A stretch of DNA of 63,903 nt, filler included, from Conidiobolus incongruus B7586 (Eukaryota), in assembly GCA_000697335.1 (NCBI GenBank). It is 19 parts of 19 records of this genome, joined end to end, with 100 filler letters (N's around TTAATTAATTAA, not from the genome) between each part and the next. Parts side by side here need not be neighbours in the genome. Positions count along the whole stretch, not along the records: positions 15,094 to 21,114 come from JNEM01003726.1; 18 more parts are not named here. The stretch is one strand, 5' to 3'. The translations under genes and the position numbers were made by a program. The notes below the pieces were generated by a model that ran no database searches, was not told the DNA's origin, and saw only the letters and a program-made list of their open reading frames with translations. Position 1 is the stretch's first letter; the number at the start of each line of letters is the position of its first letter. This document shows positions 13,831 to 54,600 of the stretch, one piece after another.

Positions 13831-13912
13831 GACACTTTGGCGGAGTGGTTAACGCGGCGCCCTGCTAAGGCGTTTCCCTTTGGGAGCACAGGTTCGAATC
13901 CTGTAGGTGTCG
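13831..13912 (+). tRNA. tRNA-Ser, anticodon GCT
   Basis: 82-nt cloverleaf: acceptor stem GACACTT/AGGTGTC with discriminator G, D-arm TGGCGGAGTGGTTAACGC, anticodon arm GCGCC-CTGCTAA-GGCGT, long variable arm TCCCTTTGGGA, T-loop GGTTCGAATCC. Confidence 0.97.
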
Positions 13913-14189
13913 AAATTTTGCCTTTTCATTCTACGATTTGAATTTATAAAGTTTTTTTTCTAAAGTTTAAAGTTAATATATTTATATATAATAAAAATTA
14001 ACTTTTAATCTAAATTTTCCTAATATCTCTTTATTGTCAAATATTTTCTGATATTATTTTAGTCTGTTGAAATTATTTTAAATAAAAATGCTTTTAATGG
14101 AAAATATTTAAGATTATTTGTAATTTAATAATTTAATAATCATAATATTTTTCAATATAATTTTTCTAATATTTATTGCCATTAATATA

Positions 14190-14993: not shown

Positions 14994-15325
14994 NNNNNNN
15001 NNNNNNNNNNNNNNNNNNNNNNNNNNNNNNNNNNNNNTTAATTAATTAANNNNNNNNNNNNNNNNNNNNNNNNNNNNNNNNNNNNNNNNNNNNAAATAAA
15101 TAAATATATTATATAATAAAACTATATAAGATTAATAATATTATATAAAAGTAATATTTAATATTAGTTTTATTTTATTTACTTTATATTAAAATAAATA
15201 TTATTTTTATATTACAAAACCCTTATAATTAAAAAAAATTTATTATAATAATTAATAACTATTTAAATTTTATTATTAAAATTTAATTAAAAATTATTAA
15301 ATTTAATTAATATAAATATATCTTT

Positions 15326-15699
15326 TGTAAGTGAATAATAATAGTTAAAGGTAGAAGAAGCAAGTTTCTTAATATCTTAAGAAATATATAATAACTAGAT
15401 CCTTTAATATTAAGATATTAACTAATAATAATAAGAAATATATTAATAGTTAAGCAAAAGGTTTATTTGTGTAAAAAGTAATATAAGCTAAAGTCCCAGC
15501 TAGAAAAAAAAATCTAAGTCTTTTTTATAGTTAAGTAGAATATATACATATAAATATATAAAGTTAAATAATAGTAAAGTTATTTAGATGTAAAGATTTA
15601 TAAAATATTAATAAAACTTAATTTAGATAATTAAATCTTTAGTAGTAAATTAAAGTGAGGAAAAATATCAATTAAGTAATAATTGTTATAATACTTACA
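15326..15699 (-). repeat. 3' LTR
   Basis: Starts TGTAAG and ends CTTACA (inverted termini). Aligns without gaps to 20565-20938. Confidence 0.93.
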
Positions 15700-18600
15700 C
15701 CCTTTTTAAACTATATTGAGCTATTAATATAATCTTATTCATTTTAATTTTTTTGATATAGAATAGGTAAGCTTAAGTGTCTTTAATTACATCAAGTAGT
15801 TTTTAAGTTGATTTAAAATTAAAATAGCTTAACCATTTTATAAAATAATAAGGTTTTTTATATTTTGTTTTATATGCAAGAATTTCATCAATATAATATT
15901 CTTTATCTCTTTAATTATTAATAATAGGTAATAGAGGTTCTTTAAAATTTTAATCAAGAAACTTATCTTTAAGATAATAATATAGTTTTAACAATGAGGT
16001 ATAGAAGACTAAATAACATTTATAAGTTTTTAGTAACTTTAATTTATAATTTCTAAGTTTAAAACCTGCTTTAAAAATATAAAATAGTTTAATCTAATAT
16101 AATAAAAACTTTCAATTTATGTTGTTTCTAGATATTTACTTAGTAAAAAATATATCTATTATATCTAAAAAGACTAGGGACTTAGATTTATATTCAAGTA
16201 GAGTTTTATAGAATTTTAAATAATAATTTTCATTATATATTTGTTTTAACTTAATTAATTCTAAAACTATTTAGTGGATTAATTTAAATCTTTCTAATTT
16301 ATCTATAATAAACTTATTAGTGATAATATTTAAGTTAGGGTTAATTAATAAGTTAAGATATTATTTATAATTTATAAAATAGGGAGTTAAATTACTAAAT
16401 TAATTAATTAAATTATTATAGGTAAATTATAAATAAAATAAAAGAGATTTTTAATTATCTTAATAAAAGTTAATATAATTTCTAACCATCTCTTTTAAAG
16501 TTTTAATAACTTTTTTAACTAGTCTATTTAATTAATAATGGCAAATAATACTAAACTTTATATTAATATTTATATGCTATATAAAAGCTTTTTAGAATTT
16601 TAAAGTAAATTTGAAATTTTTATCAATAATGATAATAATAGGTAATTTATATAATAAGATCACTTTTTTAATTAACAAGTTAGCTATTTTAAATACTATA
16701 ATTATTTTATAAGTAAAAATAAAATAAGTAAATCTATAGTATAAATTAATAACTATTAAAATATTATTATAGTTTTTTTTAACTTAAGTATTTATATAAA
16801 ATTAAGTTGTATTTAAGCTTAAAGTTAAAATAATAAAGGTAAAGAATTTAATTCACCAACTATTTTTTTTATATTATACTTATTTTTTAACAGTTATTAT
16901 AAGATTTATAATAGTTTCTTACCAACTTAATTAATTTTAGTACATAATATTTTATTTGAATTTTATTGATAAGTTGAATTTAACTTTAATGTTTACTTAA
17001 CTTATAGTTGTAATATTATTTTAAAATCTTTAATTAAAAGTTAAAAACTTTTAAAATATATAATTTATTATGTTTATATAACAAACCATTTAATATTTAA
17101 AATCCTTTATATTTAGAAAGTTTTTTCTTATTATTCTCTTCTATTTTAACTTTAATTATTAAATAAAAGTTATCACATTATAGTTTTTCTTTTAAAATCT
17201 AATAAAAATTTTTATTATTTAAGATAATAATTATTAAGTTAGTTTTAATTAGTTTTTTATATTTATTACACATTAGTGTATAATTTAGATTTTTACTTAA
17301 TATATCTATAACCTTATTTTATTTATTAAAAAAGTATTTAATTAAGAATAAAACTCCTAGATAGTTTTTATCTATCTAATTTATTTTTTAGATAAGTATT
17401 TTTGTGAATTTAAGTAAATTAATAATTTATAATTCTTTAGGTATAAAAACTCTTGATAGGATAACTAAAAATTAAACTTTTTTTTGATTTCTACTAATGT
17501 AAACATTTTTTACTTATGTATAAGATAATTTTATTTAGTAGGTGTTAATTTTCTAAACTAAAATACTAAAAGCTTTAGATTTAAATATTTAAAAACCTTT
17601 TAGTGTTTAATTACCCCCTTTAAAGTTTTAAAATAGTTATACTTTTTAAAATCTTCAATAATTTTGCTTTGTGTTATTTAATTACCTATAATATAAATAA
17701 ACATATCTATAAATATAATTACCAACAATTTAAAGTTAAATATAGCAAATATTAAAGCTATAACAATTTTATAGATTAGTGTATAAAAAGAAAAAATTTT
17801 ATTAAAGGTTTAAATAAATAATTTATCCTTCTTTAATAAATTAGATATAAAACTAGTAAGTTTAATAAATATAAGAATATAGTTTTTAAAATATATAACT
17901 AATTTTAAAAAATTTATTACTTAATATTTACTAGCAAAAATTACAATATTGTATAATCTTTAAAGTTTTGTTAAGTTAATAGAAATTCCTTTAGAAAAAA
18001 TAATATAACTATAAAATAAAATAAATAAAGCAATAAAAACATATTTAGAGAATTTTACTAATAACTAATTTTAGTTAAGTATCTGTAAAATAATCTTTAC
18101 ATATAAAATATAATTATCTAAAGTTATTAAATAAATTAAAATATTATTTAAGTAGCACATAACAAAATTATTATAATACTTGTTAAATAAACTATTTATA
18201 AGTTTTATAAATATAGCAGGTGTATTACAAAGTTTAAAATTTATAACTTTAAACTTATAATACTTTAATATATCATTAAAAATAATTAAAAGGATACTTT
18301 ATTTATTAACTAAAATATTATAATAATTACTCTTAAGATTTATTTTAGTAAAGTAGTTTATATTTATAAATCTATTTTTAATTTTATTTAAATTAGGTAA
18401 AAGAGTTTTATCTTTAATTGTTTTACTATTAAAAACTTTATTATTTATGTAAAACCACCAACCTTTATTATGTTTTTTAATAAAAAAACTAGTAAACCTT
18501 AAGGGTTTATAAAAGGTTATATAAAACCTAATTCTAATATCTTATTTATTTCTTTATAAAAAACTTTATATTGTTTAAAAGAAATATAATAAGATGATTT

Positions 18601-20564
18601 ATAATAAAGTTAGGTATTAAATAATAGTTTAATTTTATAAAATATATTTCTTTTTAATCATAGAGTAGTTAGAACTTTAAAAATATTTTTGTATTTATTA
18701 ACAACCTTATACAGTAGATTTTTGATATCTAAAGCATCTTTTAAATTTTTTAAAGAAAAAAAGATAGTATTATAGTTAATATAAATTATACTAGATTAAT
18801 TTTCTAACTTCTTAATTAAATTCACAAAGGATATTCTTGAAATTATTATATTATTGAAAAAGTTATCATTAGTATCTTTTTCTATAATAGAATTAGTTAT
18901 TAGCTAATAACTTAAACTATTATAGCAAAATAAAAAAAAATATTAATTAAACAGACTTTTATTTATAATAATTAGATAATACTTTTATAAACAACTAAAA
19001 CTTATAATAGTGTTATATTTTATAAAACCTATTATAAATTAGATTCTTTTAAATTAACTTATTACTAATAAAATATTACAATATCAAAATCTTTTAATAG
19101 TTTATTAAGTATTATTTATATAATTCAATATTATATTTATTTAATCAGAAGATAATTTAAATCTCTTAATAATATCTTTATTAATAAATATACTATTATA
19201 TTTAAAGTTAAGTAAGAAAGAAATAAAGTGTTTATTTAAAGTCCTTTTAAAAATTTATCAGGAACATAATTTATTTTTATTAAAATCTAATAAATAAGAG
19301 TTTAGATAAATATTACTCTTCTTTTCTAATAAATTTTAAAATAATTTTTGGTTATTTGAATATAATTTCAAAGGTTCATTATAAAAGATTTTTTACAAAG
19401 ATTTCTCTTTATTATTTTAACTATATTAGGTTAAATTTTAACTAGATCAATTATTAATTTGTTGATTACTTTCTTTATTGTTCATTTAAATATTATTAGT
19501 TGAAACTATATTACTAAAGTTTTTATTATTAAATAACTTCTTAAGACATTTATTCTAATGATAATCTATATTAATTTATCTATAATCAAAATATCTTTTA
19601 TTTTTTCTCAAGTATAATTTTTCTTTTTTAGTTAAATACTCTTTGTTCTATATTACAAATATATATATAACATTAAGATTAGATGATTTAGATGGGGAAT
19701 TATTAAAATTTATATAGAAACTCTTATTTATTTCTTTAATATAATTCTAATCATCTTTTACCTCAATAGCTATTTTAATTAAAATAGCAAAACTAGCTGT
19801 TTTTACATTAATCTTAAAGTAAACAACTATAAAAACATTAAGCTTGAATTTTCTCTTAAACCTATTTTTCTTTTCATCTTTAAATAAGTTAAGAATTTTT
19901 AATTTAAGCTAAACAAATTCTTTTATAGAATTTTTAATTGAAGATTTTTAAATAATCTTTGCTAGCTTATTTTAAGCTAGAGTAACTATATTTAATAGGT
20001 AAAACCTCTACTTAATCACTTATTTAAATTAATTAAATGTTTAGATTTTATCAAGATAAAAAAACTACTAATAAGATTAAATATATTTTTTAAGTGTTTA
20101 TACCACTAAAGTTTAACATAAGAGGCTAATTTAGAAGCTGAAATTTTTACTAAATTATATAAATTTAAAGCTTTAATTTTTTTAAAGAATTTAGTTAGTT
20201 TGTTTAAAAATTCTTTTAATTTTTTAAGAGATTTTAAGCTGTTATAAGTAATTAAGTTATTTGTAAAGAACTTAACTTTGTTAAAGTTTTTTAAAATAGA
20301 AAATAAAACTCTATAACTGTTTAATTCAGCTATCATCTGTTACATATAGTTAATCTACTAGGTTTACCCTAATTTTAATATATACTCAGTAAAAGTATTA
20401 TTAATATTGATAAAGTCTTATTAACTAATAGAATAATAGTTATTGTTACTAAAACTTTAAGTGTTTATCTTGTTTTAATTATATATAGAATAATAAGTTA
20501 TAATTATAAAATTTTTAATTATAGTAATAAAAGTACTTTTAGATCTTTTTAATTACTACTATTA

Positions 20565-20938
20565 TATAAGTAAATAACAACACTTAAAGGTAGAGAAAGT
20601 AAGTTTTTTAACACTTTAAGAAATATATAATAATTAGATCTTTTAATATTAAAGTGTTAACTAATAGTAATAAGAAATATATTCATAGTTAAGTAAAAGG
20701 TTTATTTGTGTAAGAAGTAATATAAGTTAAAATCCCTACTAGAGAAAAAAATCTGAGTTTTTTTTATAGTTAAGTAGAATATATACACATAAGTATATAA
20801 GGTTAAGTAATAATAAAGTCACTCAAATATAAAGATTTATAAAATATTGATAAAACTTAATTTGGATAATTAGGTCTTTAATAGTGAATTAAAGTAAGGA
20901 AAGGTATTAATTAAGTAGCAATTGTTATAATACTTATA
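20565..20938 (-). repeat. 5' LTR
   Basis: Starts TATAAG and ends CTTATA (TG...CA mutated to TA...TA). About 86% identical to the other LTR by hand count. Confidence 0.93.
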
Positions 20939-21468
20939 TCTTTATTAAATATTTTAAAAAAAAACTAGTTTATATCTATTATATTATTTTAACTTAAATT
21001 TATAATAATAAGCTAATTATTATTAAAAAATATATATAATCTTAAAAATTTAATATTTTTATATAGTTAATAAAAGAATTAATATTAAATTATATTAAAC
21101 TATTTTGATTAATANNNNNNNNNNNNNNNNNNNNNNNNNNNNNNNNNNNNNNNNNNNNTTAATTAATTAANNNNNNNNNNNNNNNNNNNNNNNNNNNNNN
21201 NNNNNNNNNNNNNNAATATAAATTATCTTTAAAATTATTATAATATATTTTTAATAATATTTCTATATTCTTTTATAGTTATATTATTATTTTTTAAAGA
21301 GTTAATATTAATTTAACTAAACTAAATAATATTACAGTTTTTATTATATTTATAAACAAAGATTAATTTATGTTTATACTTAAATCATTAAATTACTTTT
21401 AAGATTTAATTAATTCTTTAGTTAAACCTATAACTTTTTTAAATTATCTTTTAAGAAAAGATTTTTTT

Positions 21469-32500: not shown

Positions 32501-33923
32501 NNNNNNNNAAAATATTTTTAGTTTTTAATGGTTTAATAAGTGAAATCTCATTAGTATATACAGTTTAATTGATAGAATCATTAATTTATTAAAAACTTTA
32601 TAGATTAGTTGAGAATTTGTTAATTAATTTTAAAAAAATTAATTTGAAAATTATATTAATATTATTTAAATTTAATTTTCAGTTAATAGATTAAGATTAT
32701 TAAAGATTAAATTGATATTGTTTTTTTGAAGGATATTTATTAACTTTATAGTTAACTTAAATTTTTTAATAACAACAACCATTATTAACTTTTAAATAAG
32801 TTTTAACTTTTTTAATAATTGTTTTATATAAAGTTATAAAATAATAACATCTATTATTTAAGATTTGTATAATTTAAAATAAGTTTTAAAGAATTAATTC
32901 TTTAGGTGAAAAAATTTAATTATAGAATAGATATTATATAATAATATTATTATATCAAAAATCACAGAAAAAAATATATAATCAAAATATTACTGATTAA
33001 TTAATTAAAGATTTATTTAAAAATTAAAACACTATAATAGCTTATTGAGTAATTCTACTTTAATGATGGTTTATATATTAAAATATATTTTATTAAATAT
33101 CTTATTTAATTAGCTTATAAAAATTTTATATTTACGTAAAAAAAGTTTTTCTCTTGTTAATTAAACTGAAACTTTTAATTAATATTATTTTTTAAAGATT
33201 TTTTCCAATTATTTAAAAATATATATATATATACAATATATTATCCTTTTGAAAATTTTTCAAAATTAAGATTATAACAAATTACCTATTAAGTATAAGT
33301 AGACTTTTCTAAAATAGAAATAGCTAATTTAATGATATTCTATAAATTTATATAAAAAATTAAATTAAATTAATTTTTTATGTTTTTATTGTAGTTTTTA
33401 AGTATATAAAGGTTTTTAAAATATTTATAAATAGCTAATTTATTTTTAATTATACTTAAGAGATAATTTAATATATCAAAAATAGTAAAATAACTAGTTT
33501 ATTAGATTTAAACACTATAATTTATATTTTTCTTAACCAAAAGTTATTTAATATAGGCTTCTTAAAAGGTAATAATTTTTTATAAATTAAAGTTTTAGAT
33601 TTACTTAGTAATTAAGTTATTATCATTATTAAATAATATAAGGGTATTTCTTTAATAATATTATAGTATTTAATTTTTAATTTAAATAAAATAAATTGTA
33701 GATATGATTTAAAATAATAATATATAAAGTTAATATAAGTAGTTATTTATTTTCTAGTAAAATTTTAATAGTTTCATTTTTGTTATTATATAAGAACAAT
33801 AATATAAGATTATTAAAATAATATAGAGGAAAACTTAATATAAAGATAATATAGCATAAAACATAGTGATATAATATAATATGAAAATTTAAACAAAGTT
33901 TAATTAAGCTTTAAATTAAAATA

Positions 33924-35378
33924 TATTAGTTTGTAAAAATGAGTTATAAAATTAAAAGTATAAATATTTCTATTTATATTTTAATCAATTCTAATTAAAA
34001 TAAATTTATATTAAACTATATAATTAATATATATTTTTTGTTTATAATATAATATAATATATAAAGTAAAATTTAATTTATTATTAATTCATATATTAAA
34101 ATTCAAAGTATATATAAGATAAGTTATAAATTTGTGGATTTTAATATTAATAGAAAAATTAATTTTCTAGTATATTTATTTTTTGCTTTTCTAACTTCTT
34201 TAAGTTTATAGGGTATAGAATCAACTAGTTTCTTATATTAAGCAAGACTAATATTATTCTAAGCTTCTTGAATATACTCCTAAAGTTAATTTAAATTTTT
34301 TACTAGGGGGAAAGTTTTAATTGATTTTTTTAGTTAATCCTAAAGATATTCAATTGGGTTAAAATTAAGAAATTATTGAGGCTATTTTATAATGATTATT
34401 TTGTTATTTTTAAGTTATTTAATAATAGAATTTAGTATATAACAAATGGTATTATTTTGTTAGAAAATAATATTTGATTTATTTAACCAATACTATTAAA
34501 TAGTTTTTTTCAATTCATTGTTTAAAATATTTTAATATATCTTAGTATTAATTCCCCTATTAACCTTATAAAAATATTTTATACTTAAAGATAATATATA
34601 TCCCTAATTTATAATTAACCTATTATATTATTTTTGGGTTATAATAACATAATGGTTATAAAGTAGTTCTTTATTTTTTTTGAAATATCTAACTTTTTTA
34701 TATGATTTATTAAGATATATATTTATTTCATCAAACTAAATAACTTTATTCTAATAATTTTTAGTTTAACTTTAATATTAACATTTAAATTCTAATCTAA
34801 CTTTATAATGGGATTTCTTTAACTAAAAGTGTTATTTCTTAAAGTAAAAGTGATATCTATTCTAATATAAAGTAGATATAATAATATTAGTATTAATTAA
34901 TATTCTTATATAATCTTATAATTTTTATTTCATTTTTATAGCAATATTACCTTTACCTATACTAGTTAATCTATAAATATAATTTTTATTATGCTTATCT
35001 ATAATTTTAATATGCTTAAGTTTTAATTTAGGTTTTTTTAACATTATTCTTAATAACCCTAGTTATAATAAATTAGCTAACCCTAATAATTTTAGTAATC
35101 TTATAAGTTGATTTATTTTCATTATAAAGCTGATTAATATATAAATAAACTTTTTTAAAGAGAGATTTAAGTATTATAATATTAATTATAAAATATTATC
35201 TTAATAATATTATAATATATTTAATATAACCAAAGAAAAAAATTATATATATATAAGTTTTGTTATTTTTACCTTTTTAATATTTAAACCTATAAATTTA
35301 TAACTCACCTTGGTTAAATTTTAAGTTTTGATATATTAACCAATATTTAATAAAATATTATCAAATAAAATTAGCTAT
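33924..35378 (-). mobile_element. Degenerate Tc1 (DD34E, IR-DR) copy, 5' end in gap
   Basis: Terminus TA|tattagtttgtaaaaatgagttataaaat. Colinear with the reverse complement of 37217-38783. Confidence 0.85.
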
Positions 35379-36695: not shown

Positions 36696-39565
36696 TTATC
36701 TTTTTTCTTTTTTTGTCTTTATTTTATATAATATTTTACAGATATATTAAGTTTTTATATTTGTATTATTATATTTAAATCCCTTTTTAAAAAAATTTAT
36801 TTATATATTAATTAATTTATAAAAAAAATTAATTTGTGATATTATTAGAATTACTAGTGTTAGCTAGTCTACTATGGTTAAAGCTATTAAGAATAACAAC
36901 AAAAACATATTTAAACTTAAACTTAAATATATTAAAACTTTTAATAAATAAAATAAGAAGTATAATTATAAATTGGTTAGTATAAACAAATATAATATTA
37001 TTATAAAAATATAATAAAAACTAAAAACTATATAAAATTGTTAATTAATATTAATATTATTATACATATTATATATTAGCATGGATATCATTTATATCTT
37101 AAGAAAAAACACCCTTAACTAAAGAAATCTTATTATAAAGCTAGATGGGAGTTTAAATATTGCTATTAATATTAAACCAAAATTAGTTACAATAAAGTTA
37201 TTTAGTTTAATAAATATATTAACCTACAAAAGTAAGTTATAAAATCAAAATTACTTAAATATTTACTTATATTTAAAATAATTCCAAATTAAATAAATTT
37301 AAATTAAAATATATAATTTACCTATATTAATTGATTATAACTAATTATATTTGATTATATTACATTAGCTATTGGTTAATATATCAAAACCTAAAATTTA
37401 ACTAAGATGAGTTATAAATTTGTGGGTTTATAAGTTAAAAGGGTATAAATAGCAAAACTTATATATATCTTCTTTTTCTTTTGTTATATTATATATATTA
37501 TAAAACTATTAAGCTAATATTATAAAATTAATATTATAATGCTTAAATCTCTCTTTAAAAAAGTTTACTTATATATTAATCAACTTTATAATGAAAATAA
37601 ATCAACTTGTGAAATAGCTAGAATTACTAATGCTAGCTAATTTATTATAGTTAGAGTTATTAAGAACAATGCTAAAGAAACACCTAAACTAAAACTTAAG
37701 TATACTAGGATTATAGATAAGCATGATAAAAAATATATTTGTAGATTAGTTAGTATAGGTAAATGTAATATTACTGTAGAAGTATAACAAAAATTACAAG
37801 ACTATATAAAAATATTAGTTAGTACTAATACTATTATATATACTTTATATTAGAATGGATACCATTCACATCTTAAAAAAAACACCCTTAACTAAAGAAG
37901 TCCCACTATAAAGTTAGATGGGAGTTTAAATGTCAATACTAAAGTTAAACCAAAACTAACTAGAATAAAGTTATTTAGTTTAATAAAACAAAGATATATC
38001 TTAATAAATCTAATAAATGAGCTAGATATTCAAAAAAGATAAAGAATCACTTTATAACCATTATGTTATTATAACCCAAAAATATAATAGTGGGTTAATT
38101 ATAATTTAGGGATATATGTTATCATTAGGTATAGGGTATCTTTTTAGGGTTGATAGGGGAATTAATGTTGAGTTATACTAAAGTACTCTAAATAATAAAT
38201 TGAAAAAAACTATTGAGTAATATAGATTAAAAAAATCAAATATTATTTTCCAACAAGATAATACACCTTGTTATACTATTAATTTTATTATTAAATGGCT
38301 TAAAAATAACAAAATAACTATTATGAAATTGCCTCCTCAATTTTTTAATCTTAACCCAATTGAATATATTTGGGATTAAATAAAAAAATTAATTAAAGCT
38401 TTCCCCCTAGCAAAATATTTAAATCAACTTTAGGAGTATATTCAAGAAACTTGGAATAATATTAATCTTACCTAATATAAGAAGCTAGTTAACTCTATAC
38501 CTCACAAACTTAAAAAATTTAGTAAAGCAAAAGATAAATATACTAGATATTAATTTTTCTATCAATATTAAAACCTACAAATTTATAACTCATCTTAAAT
38601 ATATTTTTAATGTTAATATATCAATTAATAATTAATTAAATTTAACTACATATATTATATTATAAATAAAATATATATATTAATTACATTTTTTAATATA
38701 AGTTTATTTAAATTACAATTGATTAAGATATTAATAGAAATATATATATATTTAATTTTATGACTCATTTTTATGGGTTAGTATAAAATATAATTTAATA
38801 AATTTAATAAAAAAGCTAGATATTTTAAAAAAATATAGAATTATTTTATAACCATTATATTAATTTTAACTAAAAGTATAATGCTAGGTTAATTATTATT
38901 TGAGGATATATATTGTTTTTAAGTATAAAATATTTGTATAAAATTAATAATATAATTAATATTAAAATATGATAAAATATTTTAAATAATAAATTGAAAA
39001 TAATTATTAAATAATATAGGTTAAACAAATTTAATATTAATTTCTAGCAAGATAATGCTCTTTATTATATTATAATTTTTAGTACTAAATAGCTTAAAAA
39101 TATCAAAATAATAGTTATAAAATAACCTCTTTAATTTCTTAATTTTAATTTAATTAAAAATTTTTAAGATTAGGTAAAAAAAAATTATTAAAGCTTTTTT
39201 TTAACAAAGAATTAAAATTAGCTTTTAAAATATATTTAAGAAACATAAAATAAGATTAACCTTTCTTAGTATAAAAAGTTAATAGATTCTATACCCTATA
39301 AAGTTAAAGAAGTTAAAAAAGCTAATAATAAATATACTTGGCTATAATTTTTTTATCACCAAAAACCTATAAATTTATAACTTATTTTAAATAAAATTTA
39401 AAGATTTATATATTAACTAATTAATATTTAAATATTATTATTTAATGATATATAATTAATAAATATAATAGATTTTAATTATTTAATTTAAATTTATTTA
39501 ATTAAATATTAAATAATTAATTAATTAAAATAAAAGTTGTTTTATTTTATTTTTATAGGTTAGTA
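36696..39565 (+). mobile_element. Degenerate Tc1 host copy, split by a nested Tc1 insertion at 37217-38783
   Basis: 36696-37214 matches the 5' half of the transposase, and the match resumes at 38786. The copy ends with ...ttttataggttagta near 39565. Confidence 0.85.
37217..38783 (+). mobile_element. Full-length Tc1-family DNA transposon (1567 bp), DD34E, about 210-bp IR-DR arms, hypermutated
   Basis: TA TSDs at 37215-16 and 38784-85. The transposase relic (37539-38553) reads KSTCEIARIT, VI*FNKTKI (ancestral VIWSDETKI), FQQDNTPCYT, LPPQFFNLNPIEYIW and KYTRY*. Exactly 34 residues lie between the second D and the E. Confidence 0.93.
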
Positions 39566-42446: not shown

Positions 42447-43644
42447 AAATATAATATTTTCTTTTATTATTGATAACTTTTTGCTATATTTTTAGTAAAC
42501 TTCTAATATTTAAAAAATAATTTTTTTTATTAAAGACTGAAATTTGATATTTTACAAACTAATTAAATATTTTTTAGTAATTCTTTTTCTTATAAACTAA
42601 TTTTTCAATTATCTAAAGCAAATATAATTATATAAGTTATAGTTAAAAGAATATACTAGATATGGTAGTTTTTTCCTGTTATTTTTAATTTGAAAGTTTT
42701 TTATAATTTTAGATTTATATATTTTATAATTATTATGCAAAATAATAAAGCTTCTTAAATTATATTGAGAATACTAATTAAAAATACTTTTATTTAAAAA
42801 AATAATATAAAGTTTACTATTAATTGATTTTCCTTTAAGAACTAAATAAGAGTAGCATATATTATTATAATTTATTATAATAATTAATATTTACTTATTA
42901 ACAAAATATTTATTTAAAGGGATTTATAAAAAGGGTTAATTTAACTTAATCTAACATCTTAATTTGTGTTTTAATAAAGGATTATATATAAGGATTTAAG
43001 ATTCATCAATTGAAATTATTTATTGTAAAAGTTTAAGCTTTTAGTAATATTTTAATAAGTTTTGTTTAATAATAACTACTCTAGCTTTTTTTAAGCTTTA
43101 ATTAAATTATAAGATATCTAATTTATATTTTTATTTATTAATTTGAATTTAAGGTTTAGTTTATATAAAATACTTATAAGACTAATATTAAAATGCTTAA
43201 ATAATTCTTTAACTAAAATAAAAAGATACTTTTTCAATATATTTGTTTACTCTATTAATAATTGAAAAAATAATAGTTATATTAAATTTTTTACAATTTA
43301 GCTAATTTTAGATAATTTTTTTTAATCTTAAAATAATTTACCTAGCAATAAATTATTGATTTAGATAATATTTTATTACCAAAAGCTGCTTGTAAATTTT
43401 AAATAATTTTAAATACTTTTGGTTAAGTTTTATTTATATTAAAGTTAAAAACTTTTGATAATAATTATTTGGTTTAAATATAATTAAATCAAATAACCAA
43501 TTTTAAAATATTAATTTTTTAATCAAAAAATTATTATATATATAATTTCTTATTAACTTCATAAATATTTATTGATTTCAAACTAATAATATATTTGAAT
43601 AATTAAAAATTAAAAAATTTCCCATTATTTCAAATTTAAGATAA
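42447..43644 (-). mobile_element. Degenerate mariner copy
   Basis: Colinear with 60680-61917. Terminus aaaaatttcccattatttcaaatttaagataa. Confidence 0.85.
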
Positions 43645-43787
43645 TTTATTAATATTTATATTTATTATAATTTAAACTTAAATTTTTNNNNNNNNNNNNN
43701 NNNNNNNNNNNNNNNNNNNNNNNNNNNNNNNTTAATTAATTAANNNNNNNNNNNNNNNNNNNNNNNNNNNNNNNNNNNNNNNNNNNN

Positions 43788-44903: not shown

Positions 44904-46744
44904 NNNNNNNNNNNNNNNNNNNNNNNNNNNNNNNNNNNNNNNNNNNNTTAATTAATTAANNNNNNNNNNNNNNNNNNNNNNNNNNNNNNNNNNNNNNNNN
45001 NNNTTATTTTAAATATAATTAAATTAAATAATAAATTTTTTCAAAAATAAATCTATTCATCAAAAGACTATTATATATATAATGTATATAATTCAAACCT
45101 ATTTATTCTCCTATTTATTTTATATATTTTTTTTATTTAAAAATAATAATAACTCTATAAAATCAGAAATTAAAAAATTTTCCATCTTGGTAATTTTAAA
45201 ATAATATTATTTATTTTTTGATATTTTTTTTATAAATATTGTAGGCAAATATTGATTTAAACTCTAAAACTTTATTTTTTTAAATAATTTGATAGTTTGT
45301 TATATTGTTTTATATATATATATATATATAACTTTATAAAATTTGATTAAAAATATTACTTCTATTATGATAATATTTCTTATTTAAACTTATTAAAAGA
45401 ATTTTTACTATTTTAACTAAAAATACTTTTTACTTTGTATATAGTATAGTTTTGTTTATAAAAATTATATTTTAAAACTAGATATAAAGCATATAAAATA
45501 ATATACTTATATATAGGTAATTTCCAATTAAATTATAGATGCAAAATTAATTAATGAATTGATGAATAGATAGGTAATTACAGTGCGTTTAAATAATTAG
45601 TATAATTAATAATATTTTAATCTAAATTGATTCTTTTGAACTATATTTCAATATACAAGATTTTTTTCGTTATATTATATTCCAATATATATAAACTTTT
45701 GAATAAGTTGGTTAACAATTCAATATAAACAAAATAGTTCAACTTTGCTAAGTTATATTAGTGAATAATATTAATATAAAGTAGAATTAATTGAATAATA
45801 ATTTTACATTAAGATTAATAGTTTAAATTTTGATAATTTTTCTGAAAAGAATAATTTTGATGAAATAATTATAGATTGATAAATTATCCCAAATTAAAAT
45901 TTTATTGTAATTCCAAAATGATAGAGAATTGATTATACTGTGAGAAATTATAATATTATAATAATTATAATGATTCGAATATGGAGAATATATTGCTTTA
46001 AGATTGATCTACTTTATTGTTTAGATTATATTTAAGACTAATTTTAGAAATTGAATGATAATATAATAAGGGGTAAAAATTTGAATTTTTAGGTTAAATA
46101 TCTCAGTAAATCAAATTTTCTAATATTCTTTTTAACTTTAACAGGTAATTTTTTCTATTAAATTATCATTGAATTATTTAACCAATAATAATTGTTTGTT
46201 TATTTTGATTAGACCAAGAAATATCATAAAAGTTCAAATATTTTATAGGCAAGTATTTTGATAATAAAGCCATTTCCATGATGTTATTAGATGTTTTTAT
46301 CACTTTTAATTCACTGATATACAACAAGGCCTTATTAACCATCCATAGCCTTTGTCTCAATACTGATGAACTTTAACCCTTTAGAAGGTGAGTCATAATC
46401 TATGAATTACCATGGATATATAACCTTAGTTCAGGACACTAGAATAAAGATACCTTTTTCTATCATAAATCCCTTGATCACTTGAATCTTTAAATTATTA
46501 CTTACTAACTAGTGATTGAGTCAGGAACTAAGATAATGCCAGATCTTTGTAATTTTTGGTTAGAGACATTGTGTATATTTGTGATTTATTAGCAATTCAC
46601 TTTATTATTACTTATCCCTTCTTTTTGGTATATCCAACAGGCATACTATCCAACTTTTTTACAAAATCCTTGATATTGAATAACAACTCATCATCAACAT
46701 ATATCATCAAATTGAAAGTTATTTTATTAATCAAATATAACTAA

Positions 46745-48948
46745 ATGATATTTTGTATAGCAATATCTATTATACTCTACTTAATTTACAGTTTATACAA
46801 TTTTATACAATGCACTAAAGAATTGAAAGATATTCCATCTGCTCCAATTTGGGCAAATTTTCAGGCAAAGCTATCTCAGGAGTCATTTAATAATAAAATG
46901 GAAAAAGCGATACAACCATTATTAAATCGATATGGTATTGTTAAAGTATTTTTACCATATTCTGATACATAGCTTTTCAGATTTAATCATTATATTGAAA
47001 TAAGGCTTTCAGTATTCAAGGGGGAGTTTATTTGTTTGTAACCCTGCATTATCAAAGGAAATTTTAAATCTAGTATTTTTTGATCAATCTAATTTGAACA
47101 ATTTAATTGAAACAGATAAATACTTGGAAAACCAATCGATCTAAGAATTCATAATTTCATTTTAATAATATTTATTTGAGAGAAAATAGTTACAAGCATT
47201 AATGAACATGTAATTTATATTATTATTTATTTTTGAAACATATGATATTAATATCATTTCATAGAAATGGAATAGTGTAAAATTTTGAACTCTACCATTC
47301 ACAAAGGCTGATCTAATGAAATATTGACACTTGTGCTAAGGAATTAATTGAAGGTTGTGAAAGAAATATTCACCAAGATGTTCAAATTGATGATTTAATT
47401 AAACGGTATGTAGTTGTGAAATTGCAGAATCCCGAATCGATATTAATGTAATATATAGAATGACTTTGGATGTATTAGGTCGTCCAATTTTCGATATTGA
47501 TTTTAAAATAAATTTGTCTAATAATATTATGAAGCATAAAATAATTAACAAAATAATTGTAAGCTATTAAAGGTCCAAATCCTAAACTATTCCACCGAGA
47601 CAATTTAGTTCACCAAGTTTTCGGTCAAGTAATAAATTTGATTTTTCCATTTTTAGAGTATGTCCCGTTTTTGAAAATAGCCAAGCTTTCCTGTCAAATT
47701 GATGAATGCAATCAATTCACCAATAGTGCAGGTCTTCTGGAAAGTAGACTTGCAATAAAGACCACACAGATTCGATAAAACGGGCTAAGGACGACTAACT
47801 AGATACTTTAAATGGTTTTATTAAAATTTTAAAATGTAGGGCTTGGCCATGATCGAGATGATCCTTGAGCAAATATGTGCCCAATGACTTTTTTATAGTG
47901 TGATTAATCCTTTGCCAATGTATTGAAACTCTGATTTCTGTTATAGTCAGGAATTTTCCATTGTGCAAGGATTGTCCGTGATATTTGTGACTAGATAACA
48001 TTCTGAATCATGATATATGGTTAAAGTTTAAAGGCCAGCAGACCTCCCGAACGGCGACAATAGGATTATTGAATTAAGGAAACAAGAAATTCAAGATCCT
48101 AAACCTCAACATAAAGATAATCTATTTGATGCATTAATTGAATCTAACAATAAGGAAGAATATGAAAAACTAACTTATGAAGTAATTAGGGTAAATTATA
48201 TCGAAAAAATTATAGTTAGCTAATATATGATAAGGAAAATGCAAAAACTTATTTATCTGATTATGACACTACCTCGAATACTATAAATCTTGCATTATAT
48301 TATTTAGTTCGTTATCCTGTTAGATTAATTGATATTATATCAATCTATTAACTAATTTTTAATATATGAAATTCAAGAACAGCTCAGAGATGAGACTTTA
48401 CAAGCTTTAAAACATCCTACAGAACTCATTGTTCCTACTATTGAACAGTTGAAAAAATCCCTTATATGGATATGATTATTAAGGAATCGATAAGGATTAT
48501 GACAACTGTAACTGCAATTCAACGTGTAGCTTATGAAAATTATACACTAAAAGAACTACTGTCCCCAAGGATGCATTTGTATTTGAGCACATGTGAGCCT
48601 CACCTCACAATTCATCAACATTTTCCAATGCTGATAAATTTGACCCTGAAAGATCTGCTGATTTTCGAATGATCAAAGTAATAATTTACAACCAAATTTC
48701 ACTGGAGCTAAATAATATATGTTTGAAAAATATCTAAAATATAAATGACTCTGATTAAATACCACTCATTTATTCAGGTATCGGATCTGGATTCTCATTG
48801 ATGGAACTTCGTGTCATCATTTCAATGATTTTACGAAAGTGAGTTATCCATTCCCAATAATAGCCCACATAATCACCAAGTCAAGCTTACTTCCAATTGA
48901 ATTATTAAACCAGATAATTTGAGGATTCAATCCCAATTTAGAAGATAA
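46745..48948 (+). pseudogene. Cytochrome P450 pseudogene, paralog of the adjacent minus-strand P450
   Basis: Same exon layout as 49782-51682, with MTLDVLGR and KESIR retained. The WxxxR region is damaged, the I-helix is broken (YDTTSNT remnant), and the heme motif is disrupted (FTGAK*). It has several stops and frameshifts and an insertion at 47727-48059. Confidence 0.9.
47727..48059. mobile_element. 333-bp TG...CA insertion (probable solo LTR) in a P450 exon
   Basis: Flanked by the direct repeat ATAG (47723-26, 48060-63; extends to CAATAG if the terminal CA is counted). Removing it restores NQFTNRIIELRKQEIQD, which aligns with HQFIEEMMTIRKKELQD in the intact paralog. Confidence 0.8.
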
Positions 48949-49781: not shown

Positions 49782-51682
49782 CTATTGTCTTAATTTGATA
49801 TGAAGTGATAAATCGGAAGGACGAACAATACCAGTAGGAGTAATTCTCAAATTATGATAATCAGGATTATCAACTCCAATTGAAAATTCGAATTTTTGCA
49901 ACAACATTGCAATCGTTACTCTCTGTTCCACTAATGAGAAAGTGGTACCAAGGCCTAATAAATATTGTTATTATATTATTGTATTAATGATATATCTAGA
50001 ATTAAAATTACATGATCTGGAACCAGTTGAGAAAGGCTGCCAATTGCGACTCTCATCATTAGACAAATCAGCGAATCTATCTGGATTGAATTCTTGAGGA
50101 TTGGGGAAAGCTGATGGGTTATGATGGATGCCCCAGAGGTGGAAGAATATTGTAGTTCCTTTAGGCACAGTAATTCCATTGCTCAAAGTATGCTCTTGAG
50201 CTGTATCTCTTTGGAGCACTGCAGCAGTCGTCATAATTCTCATTGATTCTTTGTTAACTAGATCGAGGAATGGAATGTGTTTGAGCTGTTCAATGGTTGG
50301 AATGGTTACTTCTTGAGGATGACCCAAGGCTTCTAATATTTCTTTACGTAATTTATCTTGGATTTCCTAAAATTCAATTTAGATAATTGATTTAAATTGT
50401 AACTAATTTCGCTTACAGGATAACGAGCTAAGTAATACAGAGTACTGGCCAAAGTATTAGAAGTCGTATCATGTCCAGCTAAAATAAATATAGTGATATT
50501 GTCCTAAAAATATATTTAAATAAGAATTATCAAAGACTAAATTGGTAATTGATTACTCTAATTTCCTCTTTCGTAAGTTTTGATTCATCTTCATTTTCAT
50601 TAGAGCGAATGAATGCAGTAATTAAGTCTTGAGATTGCTTATTCGAATTGTCCTGTAACTCCTTTTTTCTTATGGTCATCATTTCTTCAATGAATTGGTG
50701 ATATTCCTTTAATCTCTCTCCCAATTGTGGTCTACGAAAATATGGGATATGTTCTAAAAATGGCAATATAACGTATAATGGCTGTCCAAAAATTTGCTTA
50801 ACAATATCATTATACAGATTATATAAACGAGAATTTGGATCCTTAACAGCCTAAATCCAAAGCATTTGTTAAATATAGTAACATTTCTTAATTTTTTGTT
50901 TTACATTGAAGTCAACATTAAAAATTGCTTTTCCAAACACATCTAAAGTCATTCTAATTATCATTACTATTATGTTGTAATTTTAATATCATTAAATATA
51001 TCTACCTCTGAATTAAGTCGTGAACTTTGACATCTTTGCCAGCCTGTTTTTCGAATTGATCAATTAAATCTTGAGCACAACTTCCAAATAGCTGAGTATT
51101 CCAAGTTTGGTTGAATATAGGATTGATCACTTTTCTATGACGCTTCCATTCCTATAAAAATATTAAGAGAGTTGATTGAAAAATAACAAATATATTTTTT
51201 TACATTTCCGTTGTTGCTAAGTACTTGACTTGGACCAAAGAATTTCATCAAATGCTCGCTCACTTTAATTTTGGTGAAATCAGTTTTTGGAAAGATATCT
51301 AATCATAAATTATGATTAATTGATTAAAATATGAATTATACCAAATGCATTTACCCGCTTTAGCTGAAATTTCCTTGCAAATTTTGGGATCACCAATGAA
51401 TAAAGTCCATCCGAAATGAGTAAAAACCTAATATCCATTGAATTAATTTTGATATAGTTAATATGTTATTTCATTCCTTACACGAATCACTCCATGCTCG
51501 TCGAGCAAAGGTTGGAATACTTCCTTCATCTTCTCGGGGAAACTCTTCTTGGACAGAGAAAATATAAAGAATGTGAGAAATGGGGCAGCCGGAATGTGCT
51601 CCAATTCTTTAGGGCATTTAGTCCAATTATAAATTTTATAAATGGAATAAATTATTAAAGTTGAGATTAAATATAAAATCAT
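49782..51682 (-). CDS. Cytochrome P450 monooxygenase, 9 exons, apparently intact
   Basis: N-terminal anchor, EWKRHRK (WxxxR), AGHDTT (I-helix), KESMR (ExxR), FNPDRF and FSTGSRSCLG (heme Cys codon split T|GC by the last intron). GT-AG introns include 51428-51481, 51299-51354 and 51152-51203. The stop is TAG at 49784-49782. Confidence 0.93.
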
Positions 51683-54600
51683 TTTGATAAACTGTTATAA
51701 TGAAATCTAATGGAATAATTCGAATTTTATATACATGTTCAACTATTTTACTTTCTTGTAGAATTTCCTGATTTAGTAACTTATTTAGGATATTCAATAA
51801 AGGAGTTATTCTGTCGGATTAAATTGTAATGATATCATCCGATTTTAACCGTTATATAATTGAAAAGTTGATTAAATTTGAATAAAATAGAAAAATACAA
51901 TTGAAGAGATATTTTTTACTTGAACATAAAACATATATCAATTGGGTACCGAATACTGTTATAATTTAGGTATGTTTATTTATAAAATGGAATCTGATAT
52001 TAATCTTTTATTAACGAGTTATTTCTATTCAATTTTTTAATATCCTCATCACAAAATTTCATAAATCAATCAATCAATCTGAAAAATCAAAATTGCATCC
52101 GGTTGAGCCCCCGCAATCTTAATTCGGCTATTTAAAGTTTATAAAATCCAATATTTAATAATTACTATTACACCAGTAATCAAAAATTTTCCACAAGTTT
52201 AATCATTATCAAATGGGGTAAATTTTCAAATTCGGATATGTAATGTCTTTTATGGCTATTTTCGGATGACTAAAATCAACATATATTTGATGATGATGAA
52301 AAATTATGATTTCATAACTTATATTACAATGAATTTGGTAACCAAAAATAAAGAGATTACCAATTTAAGTTTAATACCAAACATATTATAATTTAAGAAT
52401 GCAAGATATATTAGGCAATTTAATATAATATTATAATTTATAATATCGTTATGAATTTTCAAAACTGATCTGTTTAATAATCCCTCAAATATAATTTTAT
52501 TAAAGCATTTCCTAATTATTACCTTAGAATAATATAATAAATATTGAAAAACTATATTAATCGATTAATTGATATTTGATATATTTCATTTTGCTAGTAA
52601 TATATGTCAAATACTCTAAACCTTGTTATATATGTATTGAAATTTTTTAAATATTTTAAAAATTGATCACATCATAAGATTTTATGGTCTAATTACAATA
52701 AATCATAAAAAACAAAGGGAAATCCACAATAATGTTTTACTGGATATCATCAGGTGTCAAAGAGCAGACCACCCCAAAAAGAGCTATTGTAAGAACATTG
52801 AATATAAACAAATCAAGCTTTTCAACCAGTTAAAATTACATATAATGGAATATTTCTTTATTGAAAATGGAATTTTAATAATGATAATCCACTTGTTCGC
52901 AACCAATGACCCGAATGTACAATTTGAATTTACCTAAAATTTTCGTGAATGATTGAAAATGATCCATATTCAAAATTCCAAAAAAATTGATTTAATATAC
53001 TCAATCATTCATTAATAGAATCACTATTAAATATATTAACTTAATATACCAAAGAACTCTGTTTTTGTTTATTAGATTTTGATTAAACTTTTTAATGTAC
53101 ATAAATAATATCAAAGGTATACATATTTTAACTCTAACTGGGATATTGGATAATTATCATGATAGTGATTATCATCATTAATCAATATCAAATTAACTCG
53201 GAAGACTGATTTGTTCATGATGTTAAAAATTTGTTGCCTATTTATTCCAGTCCAATGTTATTAAAATATTTATTTCCGTATAACTCCTTCAAGTTAAGGG
53301 TATATTAATTGGAACAACACAATACAAGTTATATTGAAGTATTGGATATAAAAATTCATAATTAATATAATAAAAATTTTAATTAATAAATATTATATGA
53401 TCAACCGTTATTTCATCTCCATATAATTTTAAAGTAATTTCACTCATTAATTTTTTAAAAAACACTTGTATCATTTAAACATATTCTAATTCCTACTGAT
53501 TACCTTAATCACTTAATGCTCAATTATTCAGTAATTTTAAATATATTCTTTATGTATGAAATTAATCATGGAATCAAATAATGAGGTTACTAATCAACAC
53601 TATTTTACATATATTAGCAGTTTTTGAGCTACATCTTATAAAAAATCAGAGAGACTTAGTTTGAAGATATACATTCATCAATAATCATCTTTTATTAAAT
53701 TTTTATTTAAATATTTAATATTAAATTTAATCATTCCAAACAAAATGGTGAAAACCAAAGGATTTTTTTTATATTGTTCAAACTTAATCAAAAATCTTGT
53801 TATATTCTTCAAAATTTACAAGCAACTTATCAAATCAATACATTATCCAAAAACACCATATAGCACTAGCTTTGTGATTTTAAATCTATAAAATAAGCTA
53901 TACAAAAATTGTCACAATTTGATAAGCCAATTTTTTAATTATTTTTGCAATATTTAAAATAATACAAATATATAAAATAATTTAGAAATCACTTATTTGA
54001 TAAATCTAATAAGTTTCAAATATAACTTTATACAAATTATAATAATTTATTTTGTCTATTATTTTTCAACCTTAGTATATTTGATAAATATATCAAATTG
54101 AAAATTAATAAATAAAAATAATATCAATTAAAATTTTTAAAAATAGGAAATTTATTAAAATATATTTATTAACTTAAGTTTCTATCTTTTATTTTACTAA
54201 TAAAAAATAAATATTTTTATATTTTGGTTTAAAACTAAAGTGAATTATTTTTTTAATAAAAATAATACTAATAAATTGGAATAAATTAAAATTAAATTTA
54301 TAATTAATGATTAATATATATTATTTTATATTATTATATGATTTTATAGATTCTTAAAATTAAAACCATTATTATTAAGTTACTATTAATATTTCAAGGT
54401 TAAATTAACCATAATATATATTTTTTATAAATATAAAAATAGAATTACTGATTTAATATAGGGAAATACTTAATATAAAAGTAATATGGTACAAAACATA
54501 GTAAGATAGAATAGAATATAATGTGTAAATATAAACAAAGTTTAATTAAGCTTTAAACTAAGATTAGTGACTGATATATTAAAATTTATATTAGGTAATA

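What the first reader, a model, noticed from the sequence alone, without database searches (positions are those of the whole stretch)
15326..20938. RIP-like repeat hypermutation recorded by the LTR pair of one retrotransposon, in a probable early-diverging fungus
Seen: the two 374-bp LTRs align with no indels but differ at about 51 sites, about 48 transitions and 3 transversions (hand count). Neither LTR contains a CpG, and the TG...CA termini of one became TA...TA. Apparent contexts are about 20 CpA, 22 CpT and 5 CpC, on both strands. Known: LTRs are identical at insertion. RIP is best characterised in Pezizomycotina (Neurospora, CpA preference, RID methyltransferase-like protein), with a TpCpG-type variant reported in some basidiomycetes. 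Inference: a homology-triggered cytosine-mutation defence with broad context acts in this genome. The genome looks non-Dikarya, so this may be an uncharacterised system. Apparent contexts are blurred because neighbouring bases also mutated.
Basis: partly seen in the sequence, partly recalled or inferred. Interest (0 to 1): 0.9.

Follow-up and report, generated by a model that had tools for sequence, protein, structure and literature searches.

The report
Transposon-only C-to-T hypermutation in Conidiobolus-like fungus
In a fungus whose closest protein matches are to Conidiobolus, far from the moulds known for repeat-induced point mutation (RIP), transposons but not neighbouring genes have lost every CG and many other cytosines to C-to-T change far faster than ordinary mutation explains, likely through a methylation-linked genome-defence mutator whose enzyme and trigger are still unknown.

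Summary
The two 374-bp LTRs differ at 51 sites (48 transitions, 3 transversions, no gaps) and sit between perfect 5-bp target duplications. The host is Conidiobolus-like (Zoopagomycota): a P450 exon matches C. coronatus proteins at 60-74%. The damage is specific to transposons. Three families (22 kb, GC 14.0%) have CpG o/e 0.05 and CpA 0.63. Unique DNA of the same GC has 0.63 and 1.12. The context is not flat: once normalised, CpG >= CpA (about 4x) > CpT/CpC, on both strands. C-to-T change runs about 100-fold faster than transversion, and a model of general AT drift is rejected (P<=3e-5). The load is near its plateau in the youngest copies and does not grow with age, so the process looks front-loaded and self-limiting. 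Against classical RIP: no strand coordination in 12 copies, and P450 duplicates about 98.6% identical keep their CpG. No whole genome was available, so RID and DNMT genes and methylation are untested. Best reading: a transposon-targeted, methyltransferase-linked mutator. A RIP index was already reported in another entomophthoralean, but a 2025 survey scored all 8 Zoopagomycota as no-RIP. New variant of a known kind.

The parts
15326..15699 (-). 3' LTR of a Ty3/Gypsy (chromovirus-like) retrotransposon, ends TG..CA, no CpG
   Evidence: orientation from the pol frame and the purine tract at 15700-15707
20565..20938 (-). 5' LTR, ends mutated to TA..TA, no CpG; 48 transitions and 3 transversions from the other LTR
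15321..15325 (.). Left target-site duplication TCTTT
20939..20943 (.). Right target-site duplication TCTTT
17501..18763 (-). Dead pol, RT/RNase H region, 23 in-frame stops (21 TAA, 2 TAG); catalytic motif now reads YLNN
   Evidence: 2 Ty3 pol hits among 5,397 candidates; RVT_1 E 0.02, below cut-off
15761..16864 (-). Dead integrase and probable chromodomain end of pol, 19 stops
   Evidence: Chromo E 0.12, weak; E 1.6e-9 to P0019
18763..20340 (-). Probable gag/protease region, inferred from position and low stop density only
   Evidence: no Pfam hit for 18763-20052
15096..15315 (.). Family B (Tc1-like) copy into which the Ty3 element is inserted, left part
   Evidence: matches 40814-41039 and 58796-59017
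20945..21114 (.). Same family B copy, right part, continuing the match next to the left part
   Evidence: matches 40597-40766 and 58575-58751
37215..38785 (+). Full-length family B Tc1/mariner-like DNA transposon with 215-bp terminal inverted repeats, dead DDE transposase, no CpG; nested in another B copy
   Evidence: (DDE_3 E 2.2e-6, 28.0 bits vs cut-off 28.6)
33884..35378 (.). Family B copy; further copies at 40121-41234, 41335-42346 and 57960-59434, and a fragment at 28152-28407 on a contig with host-type composition
42447..43687 (.). Family A repeat (about 1.2 kb, class not identified), same signature; other copies at 14190-14993, 21438-22386, 24040-24931, 35700-36595, 43788-44903, 60661-61928 and 62782-63903
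   Evidence: no Pfam hit for its longest ORF
45004..45206 (.). Family A end on the P450 contig; another end at 5-136 on the OTU-gene contig; these link the mutated repeats to host genes
   Evidence: a public-run contig spans 45030-46278 with 0 differences
49782..51694 (-). Control: cytochrome P450 gene with introns (host marker); CpG o/e 0.64; near-identical duplicates of its 3' part exist and are not hypermutated
47730..48045 (.). Control: 316-bp high-copy MITE-like element inside a P450 pseudogene; keeps 5 CpG (6.5 expected)
46250..46620 (.). Intermediate tier: about 370-bp multicopy repeat with no CpG (5.2 expected, P 0.006) but normal CpA (o/e 1.12)

Best explanation
The transposons of this Conidiobolus-like fungus have been hit by repeat-confined C-to-T hypermutation on both strands, likely caused by a cytosine methyltransferase sent to transposon chromatin that turns cytosines into thymines soon after insertion and then stops. 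Shown: the direction, both strands, the confinement to transposons, and the involvement of both LTR and DNA transposons. Estimated by models: the hierarchy CpG >= CpA (about 4x) > CpT/CpC, a rate about 100-fold above transversion, and a load that is near plateau in the youngest copies. Inferred steps: (1) new copies are marked as transposons by RNAi or heterochromatin rather than by pairing of any duplicate; (2) a DNMT1-superfamily enzyme methylates CpG and also CpA/CpH there; (3) the modified cytosines are fixed as T in many independent events, as with the Dim2-dependent mitotic mutator of Zymoseptoria tritici; (4) the process fades once the copy is dead and its CpG and much of its CpA are gone, at about 11-19% GC and 77-87% identity between copies, after which ordinary drift takes over. 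The effect is permanent inactivation: pol and transposase are full of stops.
For: Matched composition control: repeats (22,094 bp, GC 14.0%) have CpG o/e 0.046, CpA 0.63, CpT 1.39; AT-rich unique DNA (13,019 bp, GC 13.8%) has 0.63, 1.12, 0.87 (p 4e-57). Rate: per-copy change probability in the LTRs is 0.71 for CpA, 0.27 for CpT and 0.24 for CpC, against 0.004 transversions per site (95% range 0.0008-0.012). The low transversion age is supported by at least 14 private transversions in 5,613 bp among the 40 of 1,832 rows shown. Family-wide, other copies differ at 1,485 transition vs 198 transversion places (run X1; 1,481 vs 198 in X4). Forward simulation (9 rate sets) reproduces the element only with CpG >= CpA > CpC/CpT. 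Front-loading: transitions stay at about 0.10-0.17 per site across copy pairs while transversions range from under 1% to 25%; copy A43 is fully hit at 0.5% transversion age; a constant rate would leave under about 5% GC at ages of 5-11%, yet the 7 copies of that age hold 10-18%. Many independent events: C>T and G>A loads are equal in all 12 copies tested. Transposon targeting rather than any-duplicate targeting: P450 duplicates with 7 differences in 506 bp keep 8 CpG, and their listed differences are 7 transitions and 4 transversions (vs 48:3, p 0.015). A CpG-only tier exists (46250-46620). Precedent: Dim2 drives over 95% C-to-T, mostly at CA, in methylated repeats during mitosis (PMC8016269, passages). 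All entomophthoralean genomes in PMC11105155 carry PF00145 genes (passage).
Against: No methyltransferase gene or methylation data were seen for this organism, because no whole genome is held. The Z. tritici mutator spares CpG, whereas CpG is gone here, so the match is partial. 5mC is described as scarce in Zoopagomycota (PMC11258239, passage). The arrest at 77-87% identity fits homology-dependent RIP equally well. The P450 control rests on 11 listed rows and one gene family under purifying selection. Transversion ages may overstate time since insertion if copies come from different master elements. A high-copy 316-bp MITE escaped, so being a transposon is not sufficient. Part of the CpA signal in the LTR pair may come from former CpG sites. 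The inverted-repeat arms of the full-length Tc1 copy show 30 transitions and 29 transversions, not the LTR pattern, though the arms were probably never identical.
Confidence: 0.5

Rival explanations
1. True RIP-like defence: duplicated DNA above a size and identity threshold is recognised by pairing, probably around zygospore formation, and C-to-T mutated over many rounds until copies fall to about 80% identity.
For: Front-loaded and self-limiting at 77-87% identity; RIP is said to fade near 80% (PMC8016269). All transposon classes are hit. A 316-bp MITE escapes, as short repeats do under RIP (threshold of about 400 bp recalled). A CpA component has been tied to RID-bearing genomes (PMC4352252). 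Methyltransferases with RID-like architecture and a 24.2% RIP index are reported in Zoophthora radicans (PMC11105155).
Against: No strand bias or runs in any of 12 copies (Fisher p >= 0.12, runs p >= 0.07, heterogeneity p 0.48-0.96). About 98.6%-identical P450 duplicates of similar transversion age keep CpG. RID/Masc1 was not reported in Zoopagomycota (PMC5751038). The closest relative, C. coronatus, scores no_rip (PMC12543289 supplement). A CpA-dominated model leaves CpG enriched (o/e 1.4-1.7), the opposite of what is seen.
Confidence: 0.25
2. Passive decay: transposons are methylated at CpG and non-CpG sites, and 5mC deaminates spontaneously over long times, with no active mutator.
For: CpG is lost first and completely, including in a repeat with normal CpA. 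Events are independent and symmetric on both strands. Repeat-restricted 5mC is reported in Linderina (Zoopagomycota) and Phycomyces (PMC11258239).
Against: Non-CpG cytosines changed about 70-300 times faster than transversions. This exceeds the 25-30 fold recalled for fully methylated vertebrate CpG, though the low end of the confidence range for CpT/CpC (about 25-fold) overlaps it. A steady clock would strip older copies to under 5% GC, which is not seen. CpG decay alone does not deplete CpA.
Confidence: 0.17
3. General AT-biased mutation acting on all unselected DNA.
For: Unique intergenic DNA is as AT-rich (11-16% GC) as the repeats.
Against: The upper-bound neutral Ti/Tv is 1.6-2.4 against 16 observed (P <= 3e-5). 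The dinucleotide signature is opposite at equal GC. A flat-rate model fails. The P450 pseudogene keeps CpG o/e 0.61 and CpA 1.17.
Confidence: 0.03
4. The mutated contigs come from a contaminating ascomycete with ordinary RIP.
For: The LTR contig carries no host gene. Long contigs of other family copies are at lower depth (4.6-9.5 in X1) than the exact-match pieces over the P450 genes (27.6-30.5).
Against: Family A ends lie on the OTU, tRNA and P450 contigs, and a family B fragment lies on a host-type contig. A public-run contig spans a family A end into unique DNA with 0 differences. The Ty3 element is nested in family B. AT-rich host DNA is also at low depth (10-14 in X1; 7.5-9.4 in X4 vs 4.2-6.1), consistent with GC bias.
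Confidence: 0.03
5. APOBEC-like cytidine deaminase editing of retrotransposon cDNA before insertion.
For: The changes are C:G to T:A in a retroelement.
Against: Both strands are equally hit. The two LTRs mutated independently after insertion. A DNA transposon with no cDNA stage shows the same signature.
Confidence: 0.02

Closest known systems
Dim2-dependent mitotic CA>TA mutator of Zymoseptoria tritici (PMC8016269; passages read)
   Same: Repeat-confined, overwhelmingly C-to-T, CpA-favouring change that inactivates transposons and needs no demonstrated pairing step.
   Different: There over 98% of changes are at CA and CpG is spared; here CpG is fully lost and CpT/CpC are hit at about a quarter of the CpA rate. 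The host is outside Dikarya, and enzyme and life stage are unknown.
Canonical RIP of Pezizomycotina (RID-dependent; Aspergillus and Tuber CpG+CpA variants, PMC4352252 passages)
   Same: C:G to T:A on both strands without indels, CpA depletion, TpA gain, positive composite index across the element, all transposon classes hit, arrest near 80-87% identity.
   Different: No strand coordination, near-identical gene duplicates survive, CpG is the strongest target, and no RID is known in the phylum.
RIP-index signal in Zoophthora radicans and other Entomophthorales (PMC11105155; passages)
   Same: Same subphylum; suggests RIP may act outside Dikarya.
   Different: That work used dinucleotide indices only and gave major caveats. 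Here the evidence is from alignments, with an LTR clock, context rates, matched-GC controls and timing, in the Conidiobolus lineage.
CpG-only transposon decay of basidiomycetes (Microbotryum TpCpG, rusts; PMC4352252 passages)
   Same: Loss of CpG from repeats, attributed to DNMT1-class methylation plus deamination.
   Different: Here there is a strong extra CpA and CpH component and a front-loaded time course.

Membership tests
Canonical RIP | C:G to T:A transitions without indels, confined to repeats | tested here: met
Canonical RIP | CpA preference | tested here: inconclusive
   CpA is about 4x CpT/CpC, but CpG is at least as strong and fully lost; CpA-only models fail
Canonical RIP | Any duplicate above about 400 bp and 80% identity is hit, whatever its sequence | tested here: not met
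   One test case: P450 duplicates with 7 differences in 506 bp keep CpG; selection on the gene is a caveat
Canonical RIP | Processive, strand-coordinated mutation per round (feature recalled) | tested here: not met
   0 of 12 copies show strand bias or runs; many rounds could average it out
Canonical RIP | Stops as copies diverge to about 80% identity | tested here: met
   Copies 77-87% identical; load does not grow with age; the cause of the arrest is not identified
Canonical RIP | Requires a RID/Masc1 methyltransferase | not testable with these tools
   No genome held
Canonical RIP | Acts premeiotically in the sexual cycle | not testable with these tools
   Needs crosses or zygospore passages
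Dim2-type mitotic mutator | Over 95% of new changes in repeats are C-to-T | tested here: met
   48 of 51 (94%) between the LTRs, a historical not experimental count
Dim2-type mitotic mutator | Nearly all at CpA, CpG spared | tested here: not met
Dim2-type mitotic mutator | Depends on a DIM-2-like enzyme and acts in mitosis in 5mC regions | not testable with these tools
   No genome, methylome or lines
Passive 5mC deamination | Confined to CpG and raising TpG/CpA | tested here: not met
   CpA o/e 0.63 vs 1.12 in matched DNA; met only for the repeat at 46250-46620
Passive 5mC deamination | Clock-like accumulation with age | tested here: not met
   model-based, one seed per setting
Ty3/Gypsy LTR retrotransposon (the element) | LTRs with TG..CA ends, 5-bp TSD, RT-RNase H then integrase order | tested here: met
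   chromodomain only weak

The most novel reading that the evidence does not exclude
This is a genuine homology-sensing, RIP-equivalent genome defence in Zoopagomycota, with its own CpG >= CpA > CpH specificity and probably no RID. Repeat-directed mutagenesis would then either predate the split of zygomycete fungi from Dikarya or have evolved a second time.
Probability: 0.25. Interest if true: 0.88.

Novelty: new variant of a known kind. Interest (0 to 1): 0.6.

Why it matters
A 2025 survey of 1,239 genomes concluded that RIP-like signatures are restricted to four ascomycete classes and scored all 8 Zoopagomycota, including C. coronatus, as no_rip (PMC12543289). CpA signatures have been tied to RID-bearing ascomycetes (PMC4352252). 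This window shows, by alignment rather than by index, a strong CpA-containing, transposon-confined, front-loaded C-to-T mutator in a Conidiobolus-like fungus. It supports the tentative entomophthoralean claim of PMC11105155. It also suggests that k-mer screens may miss the process in genomes whose unique DNA is already about 14% GC. Comparing this genome with C. coronatus would make it testable which methyltransferase is mutagenic and whether pairing or sex is needed, a long-open question for RIP itself.

Tried and rejected
No whole genome is held, so the DNMT/RID/deaminase search and genome-wide spectra were not done. The full HMMER search for closer Ty3 relatives never ran (queue full on all 7 tries), so the element's closest relatives and its true ancestral contexts are unknown; only two 23-24% hits were available. 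The Tc1 transposase search found nothing at E<=0.001 among 225 candidates. No RNA holder was listed. The small secreted-type ORF at 26315-26596 gave only weak I78-inhibitor leads (Pfam E 0.098; Atlas scores <=0.80) and does not identify its contig. The inverted-repeat arms of the Tc1 copy gave 30 transitions and 29 transversions and were set aside as a clock, because their transversion distance (0.13) is far above the copy's own (0.019). Trinucleotide contexts showed no consistent 5' preference across families. Patchiness was significant in 1 of 12 copies (A62, p 0.02). Border comparisons were too thin in cytosines to test spreading; only copy A60 shows a clean edge. Rfam found only the tRNA-Ser and nothing in 46100-48200. 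The eLife supplements held no PF00145 or RIP values. A cross-fungal methylome paper was not held. Passages of PMC7862722, PMC13297926 and PMC12344493 had nothing on Conidiobolus.
Full report
OBSERVATION. The window is 19 short contigs joined by 100-nt spacers. The finding fills most of one 6,021-bp contig (15094-21114). The LTRs at 15326-15699 and 20565-20938 align without gaps and differ by 48 transitions and 3 transversions. They are bounded by TCTTT on both sides; the left has TG..CA ends and the right TA..TA. The contig has no CpG where 21 are expected. The element is a minus-strand Ty3/Gypsy retrotransposon: its RT/RNase H frame, read with X at 23 stops, matched 2 Ty3 pol proteins among 5,397 candidates. 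At the 115 positions where both agree, 37 are unchanged, 40 are explicable by C>T/G>A alone, 1 by the reverse and 37 by neither (no shuffled null was run). Both strands contribute (D>N, G>K, R>K as well as H>Y, P>F, S>F). This copy also has a few single-base indels relative to others.

HOST. A P450 exon returned 14 hits among 364 candidates. The top 12 are Conidiobolus coronatus proteins at 60-74% identity and the next is at 35%. The host is therefore a relative of C. coronatus (Entomophthoromycotina, Zoopagomycota); the species was not determined, and this rests on one gene family. The Ty3 element is nested in a Tc1-like family B copy. A B fragment lies on a contig of host-type composition. 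Ends of a third repeat, family A, lie on the OTU, tRNA and P450 contigs. An independently assembled contig from run X4 spans 45030-46278, from a family A end into unique DNA, with 0 differences. Depth falls with GC in these runs: X1 gives 27.6-30.5 over the P450 region, 10-14 in AT-rich host DNA and 4.6-9.5 for long Ty3-family contigs. Contamination is unlikely but not excluded by a single molecule.

MORE THAN AT DRIFT. Unique intergenic DNA here is itself 11-16% GC, so a matched control was needed. Repeats (22,094 bp, GC 14.0%) have CpG o/e 0.046, CpA 0.63 and CpT 1.39; AT-rich unique DNA (13,019 bp, GC 13.8%) has 0.63, 1.12 and 0.87 (p 4e-57). I calibrated neutral change from 2,108 invariant A/T columns in 4 older copies and the equilibrium GC, counting every GC loss as a transition. 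That gives an upper-bound Ti/Tv of 1.6-2.4, under which 48 of 51 has P<=3e-5. Across the Ty3 contig, about 10-50 contigs overlap each listed site, and places differing in at least 5% of depth number 1,485 transitions and 198 transversions (X1; X4 1,481 and 198). The P450 contig, a mix of genes, paralogs and repeats, gives 385 and 189.

CONTEXT. Normalised, the LTR differences fall on 20 of 24 CpA, 22 of 52 CpT and 5 of 13 CpC sites (p 6e-4). Corrected for double hits, that is 0.71, 0.27 and 0.24 per copy, and about 32% GC at insertion against 17-19% now. In the 5-copy alignments CpA is also ahead but only modestly (A: 0.54 vs CpT 0.47, CpC 0.40; B: 0.60, 0.54, 0.33). Their union states reach 28-31% GC yet hold only 3 and 0 CpG. 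Of 20 sites kept here but lost in most other Ty3 copies, 10 are CpA against 23% expected (p 0.008). These are 20 of the 21 such rows among 40 shown; row 18735 was left out for single-run support. In forward simulation from host coding DNA, flat, CpG-only and CpA-only rates all fail; CpG >= CpA (3-4x) > CpC >= CpT reproduces the element. Whether founders were already poor in CpG cannot be told; only 3 TG/CA column pairs per family were seen.

TIMING. Transversions between the LTRs are 0.4% per copy (95% range 0.08-1.2%), so C-to-T ran about 100 times faster. Among family A and B pairs, transitions stay at about 0.10-0.17 per site while transversions run from 2% to 25%; part of that plateau is saturation at low GC. 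A constant-rate model predicts 2% GC at a transversion age of 0.03 and 0.6% at 0.06, or 9% and 4% on the most lenient calibration. All 15 copies hold 10-19% GC, including 7 aged 0.05-0.11, and the youngest (A43, 0.005) is already fully hit. The oldest (A24, 0.19) has drifted back toward background CpA/CpT. The process therefore appears front-loaded and self-limiting. Caveats: one seed per setting, and subfamily structure or misalignment could inflate ages.

TRIGGER. Two tests go against classical RIP. First, none of 12 copies shows strand bias or runs of one mutation type, and copies do not differ in strand ratio, although they differ strongly in total load (p 5e-9 and 5e-11). Many rounds could hide this. 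Second, the 3' part of the P450 gene has near-identical duplicates. A run contig of double depth covers 49771-50276 with 7 differences, while the 8 long pieces listed elsewhere on the contig as exact matches have 0, which argues for paralogs rather than alleles. That stretch keeps 8 CpG (10 expected), and the 11 listed differences in the gene are 7 transitions and 4 transversions. Selection may protect the gene. A 316-bp MITE-like element of very high copy number also keeps CpG, and a 370-bp repeat has lost CpG only. These are single examples, but they suggest tiers: none, CpG only, and CpG plus CpA/CpH in larger transposons. For homology sensing: arrest at 77-87% identity and escape of a short repeat.

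MECHANISM. The most likely explanation (0.5) is a methyltransferase directed to transposon chromatin that methylates CpG and non-CpG sites and leaves them fixed as T in many independent events, fading when the copy is dead. Pairing-triggered RIP gets 0.25, passive 5mC decay 0.17, and drift, contamination and cDNA editing 0.08 together. Enzyme, methylation and life stage are all untested.

WHAT IS KNOWN. PMC11105155 (passages; supplements searched without result) reports a 24.2% RIP index in Zoophthora radicans and methyltransferases with RID-like architecture that it declines to call homologs. PMC12543289 (abstract, sections 8-9, supplement rows) finds RIP-like signatures only in four ascomycete classes and scores 8 of 8 Zoopagomycota, and the 22 of 30 Mucoromycota rows shown, as no_rip; three of its large supplements could not be read and may list Rid1/Dim2 presence. 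PMC5751038 (passages, supplement rows) lists no RID in Zoopagomycota. PMC8016269 and PMC4352252 (passages) give the Dim2 mitotic mutator and the CpA-RID association. PMC11258239 (passages) notes repeat-restricted but scarce 5mC in the phylum. Paper searches showed no alignment-based report for Conidiobolus. However, a 2017 subscription paper on CG deficiency in basidiomycetes and 'some lower fungi' (recalled, not read; its title phrase was searched) may cover part of this. Earlier notes of this scan describe similar CpG-then-CpA decay in Endogonales and Dimargaritales; I did not check them.

VERDICT. A real, strong, transposon-confined C-to-T mutator signature outside Dikarya. It works like RIP in outcome but fails two RIP membership tests and is not shown to be homology-triggered. 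New variant of a known kind; interest 0.6.

Noticed in passing
window 47730-48045: 316-bp MITE-like element with short terminal inverted repeats, inserted in a P450 pseudogene; summed depth up to about 11,500 against about 28 for single-copy DNA, so probably hundreds of copies; CpG intact; no Rfam match.
   Followed up: partly
window 46250-46620: Multicopy repeat (about 13-35 overlapping contigs) just upstream of the P450 pseudogene, with no CpG but normal CpA.
   Followed up: partly
window 46745-48922 (+) and 49782-51694 (-): A broken P450 (stops, frameshifts, MITE insertion) and a P450 with no break seen in the matched exons, convergent, about 61% identical in DNA; run contigs show further paralogs at about 87% and 98-99%.
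   Followed up: partly
window 26315-26596: Small ORF with a signal-peptide-like start and a weak match to peptidase inhibitor I78 (Pfam E 0.098); Atlas look-alikes were bacterial but scored under 0.9.
   Followed up: partly
window 10717-11785: OTU-like cysteine protease gene with introns (PF02338 E 8e-16).
   Followed up: no
window 4544-5623: 359-aa ORF with a Ser-rich tail and no Pfam match.
   Followed up: no
window 13830-13913: tRNA-Ser(GCT), about 280 bp from a family A copy, with CpG intact.
   Followed up: no
window 36696-40020: Nest of Tc1-like copies inserted into one another; the full-length copy 37215-38785 is the least mutated of its family (19% GC) despite lying in the nest.
   Followed up: partly
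window 60661-61928: Isolated family A copy in unique DNA; about half the C-to-T load of its siblings, nearly normal CpA but only 1 CpG, with a sharp compositional edge.
   Followed up: partly
window 54400-55100: Very high-copy AT-rich repeat at the end of the P450 contig (summed depth about 18,000-21,000 in one bin), not classified.
   Followed up: no
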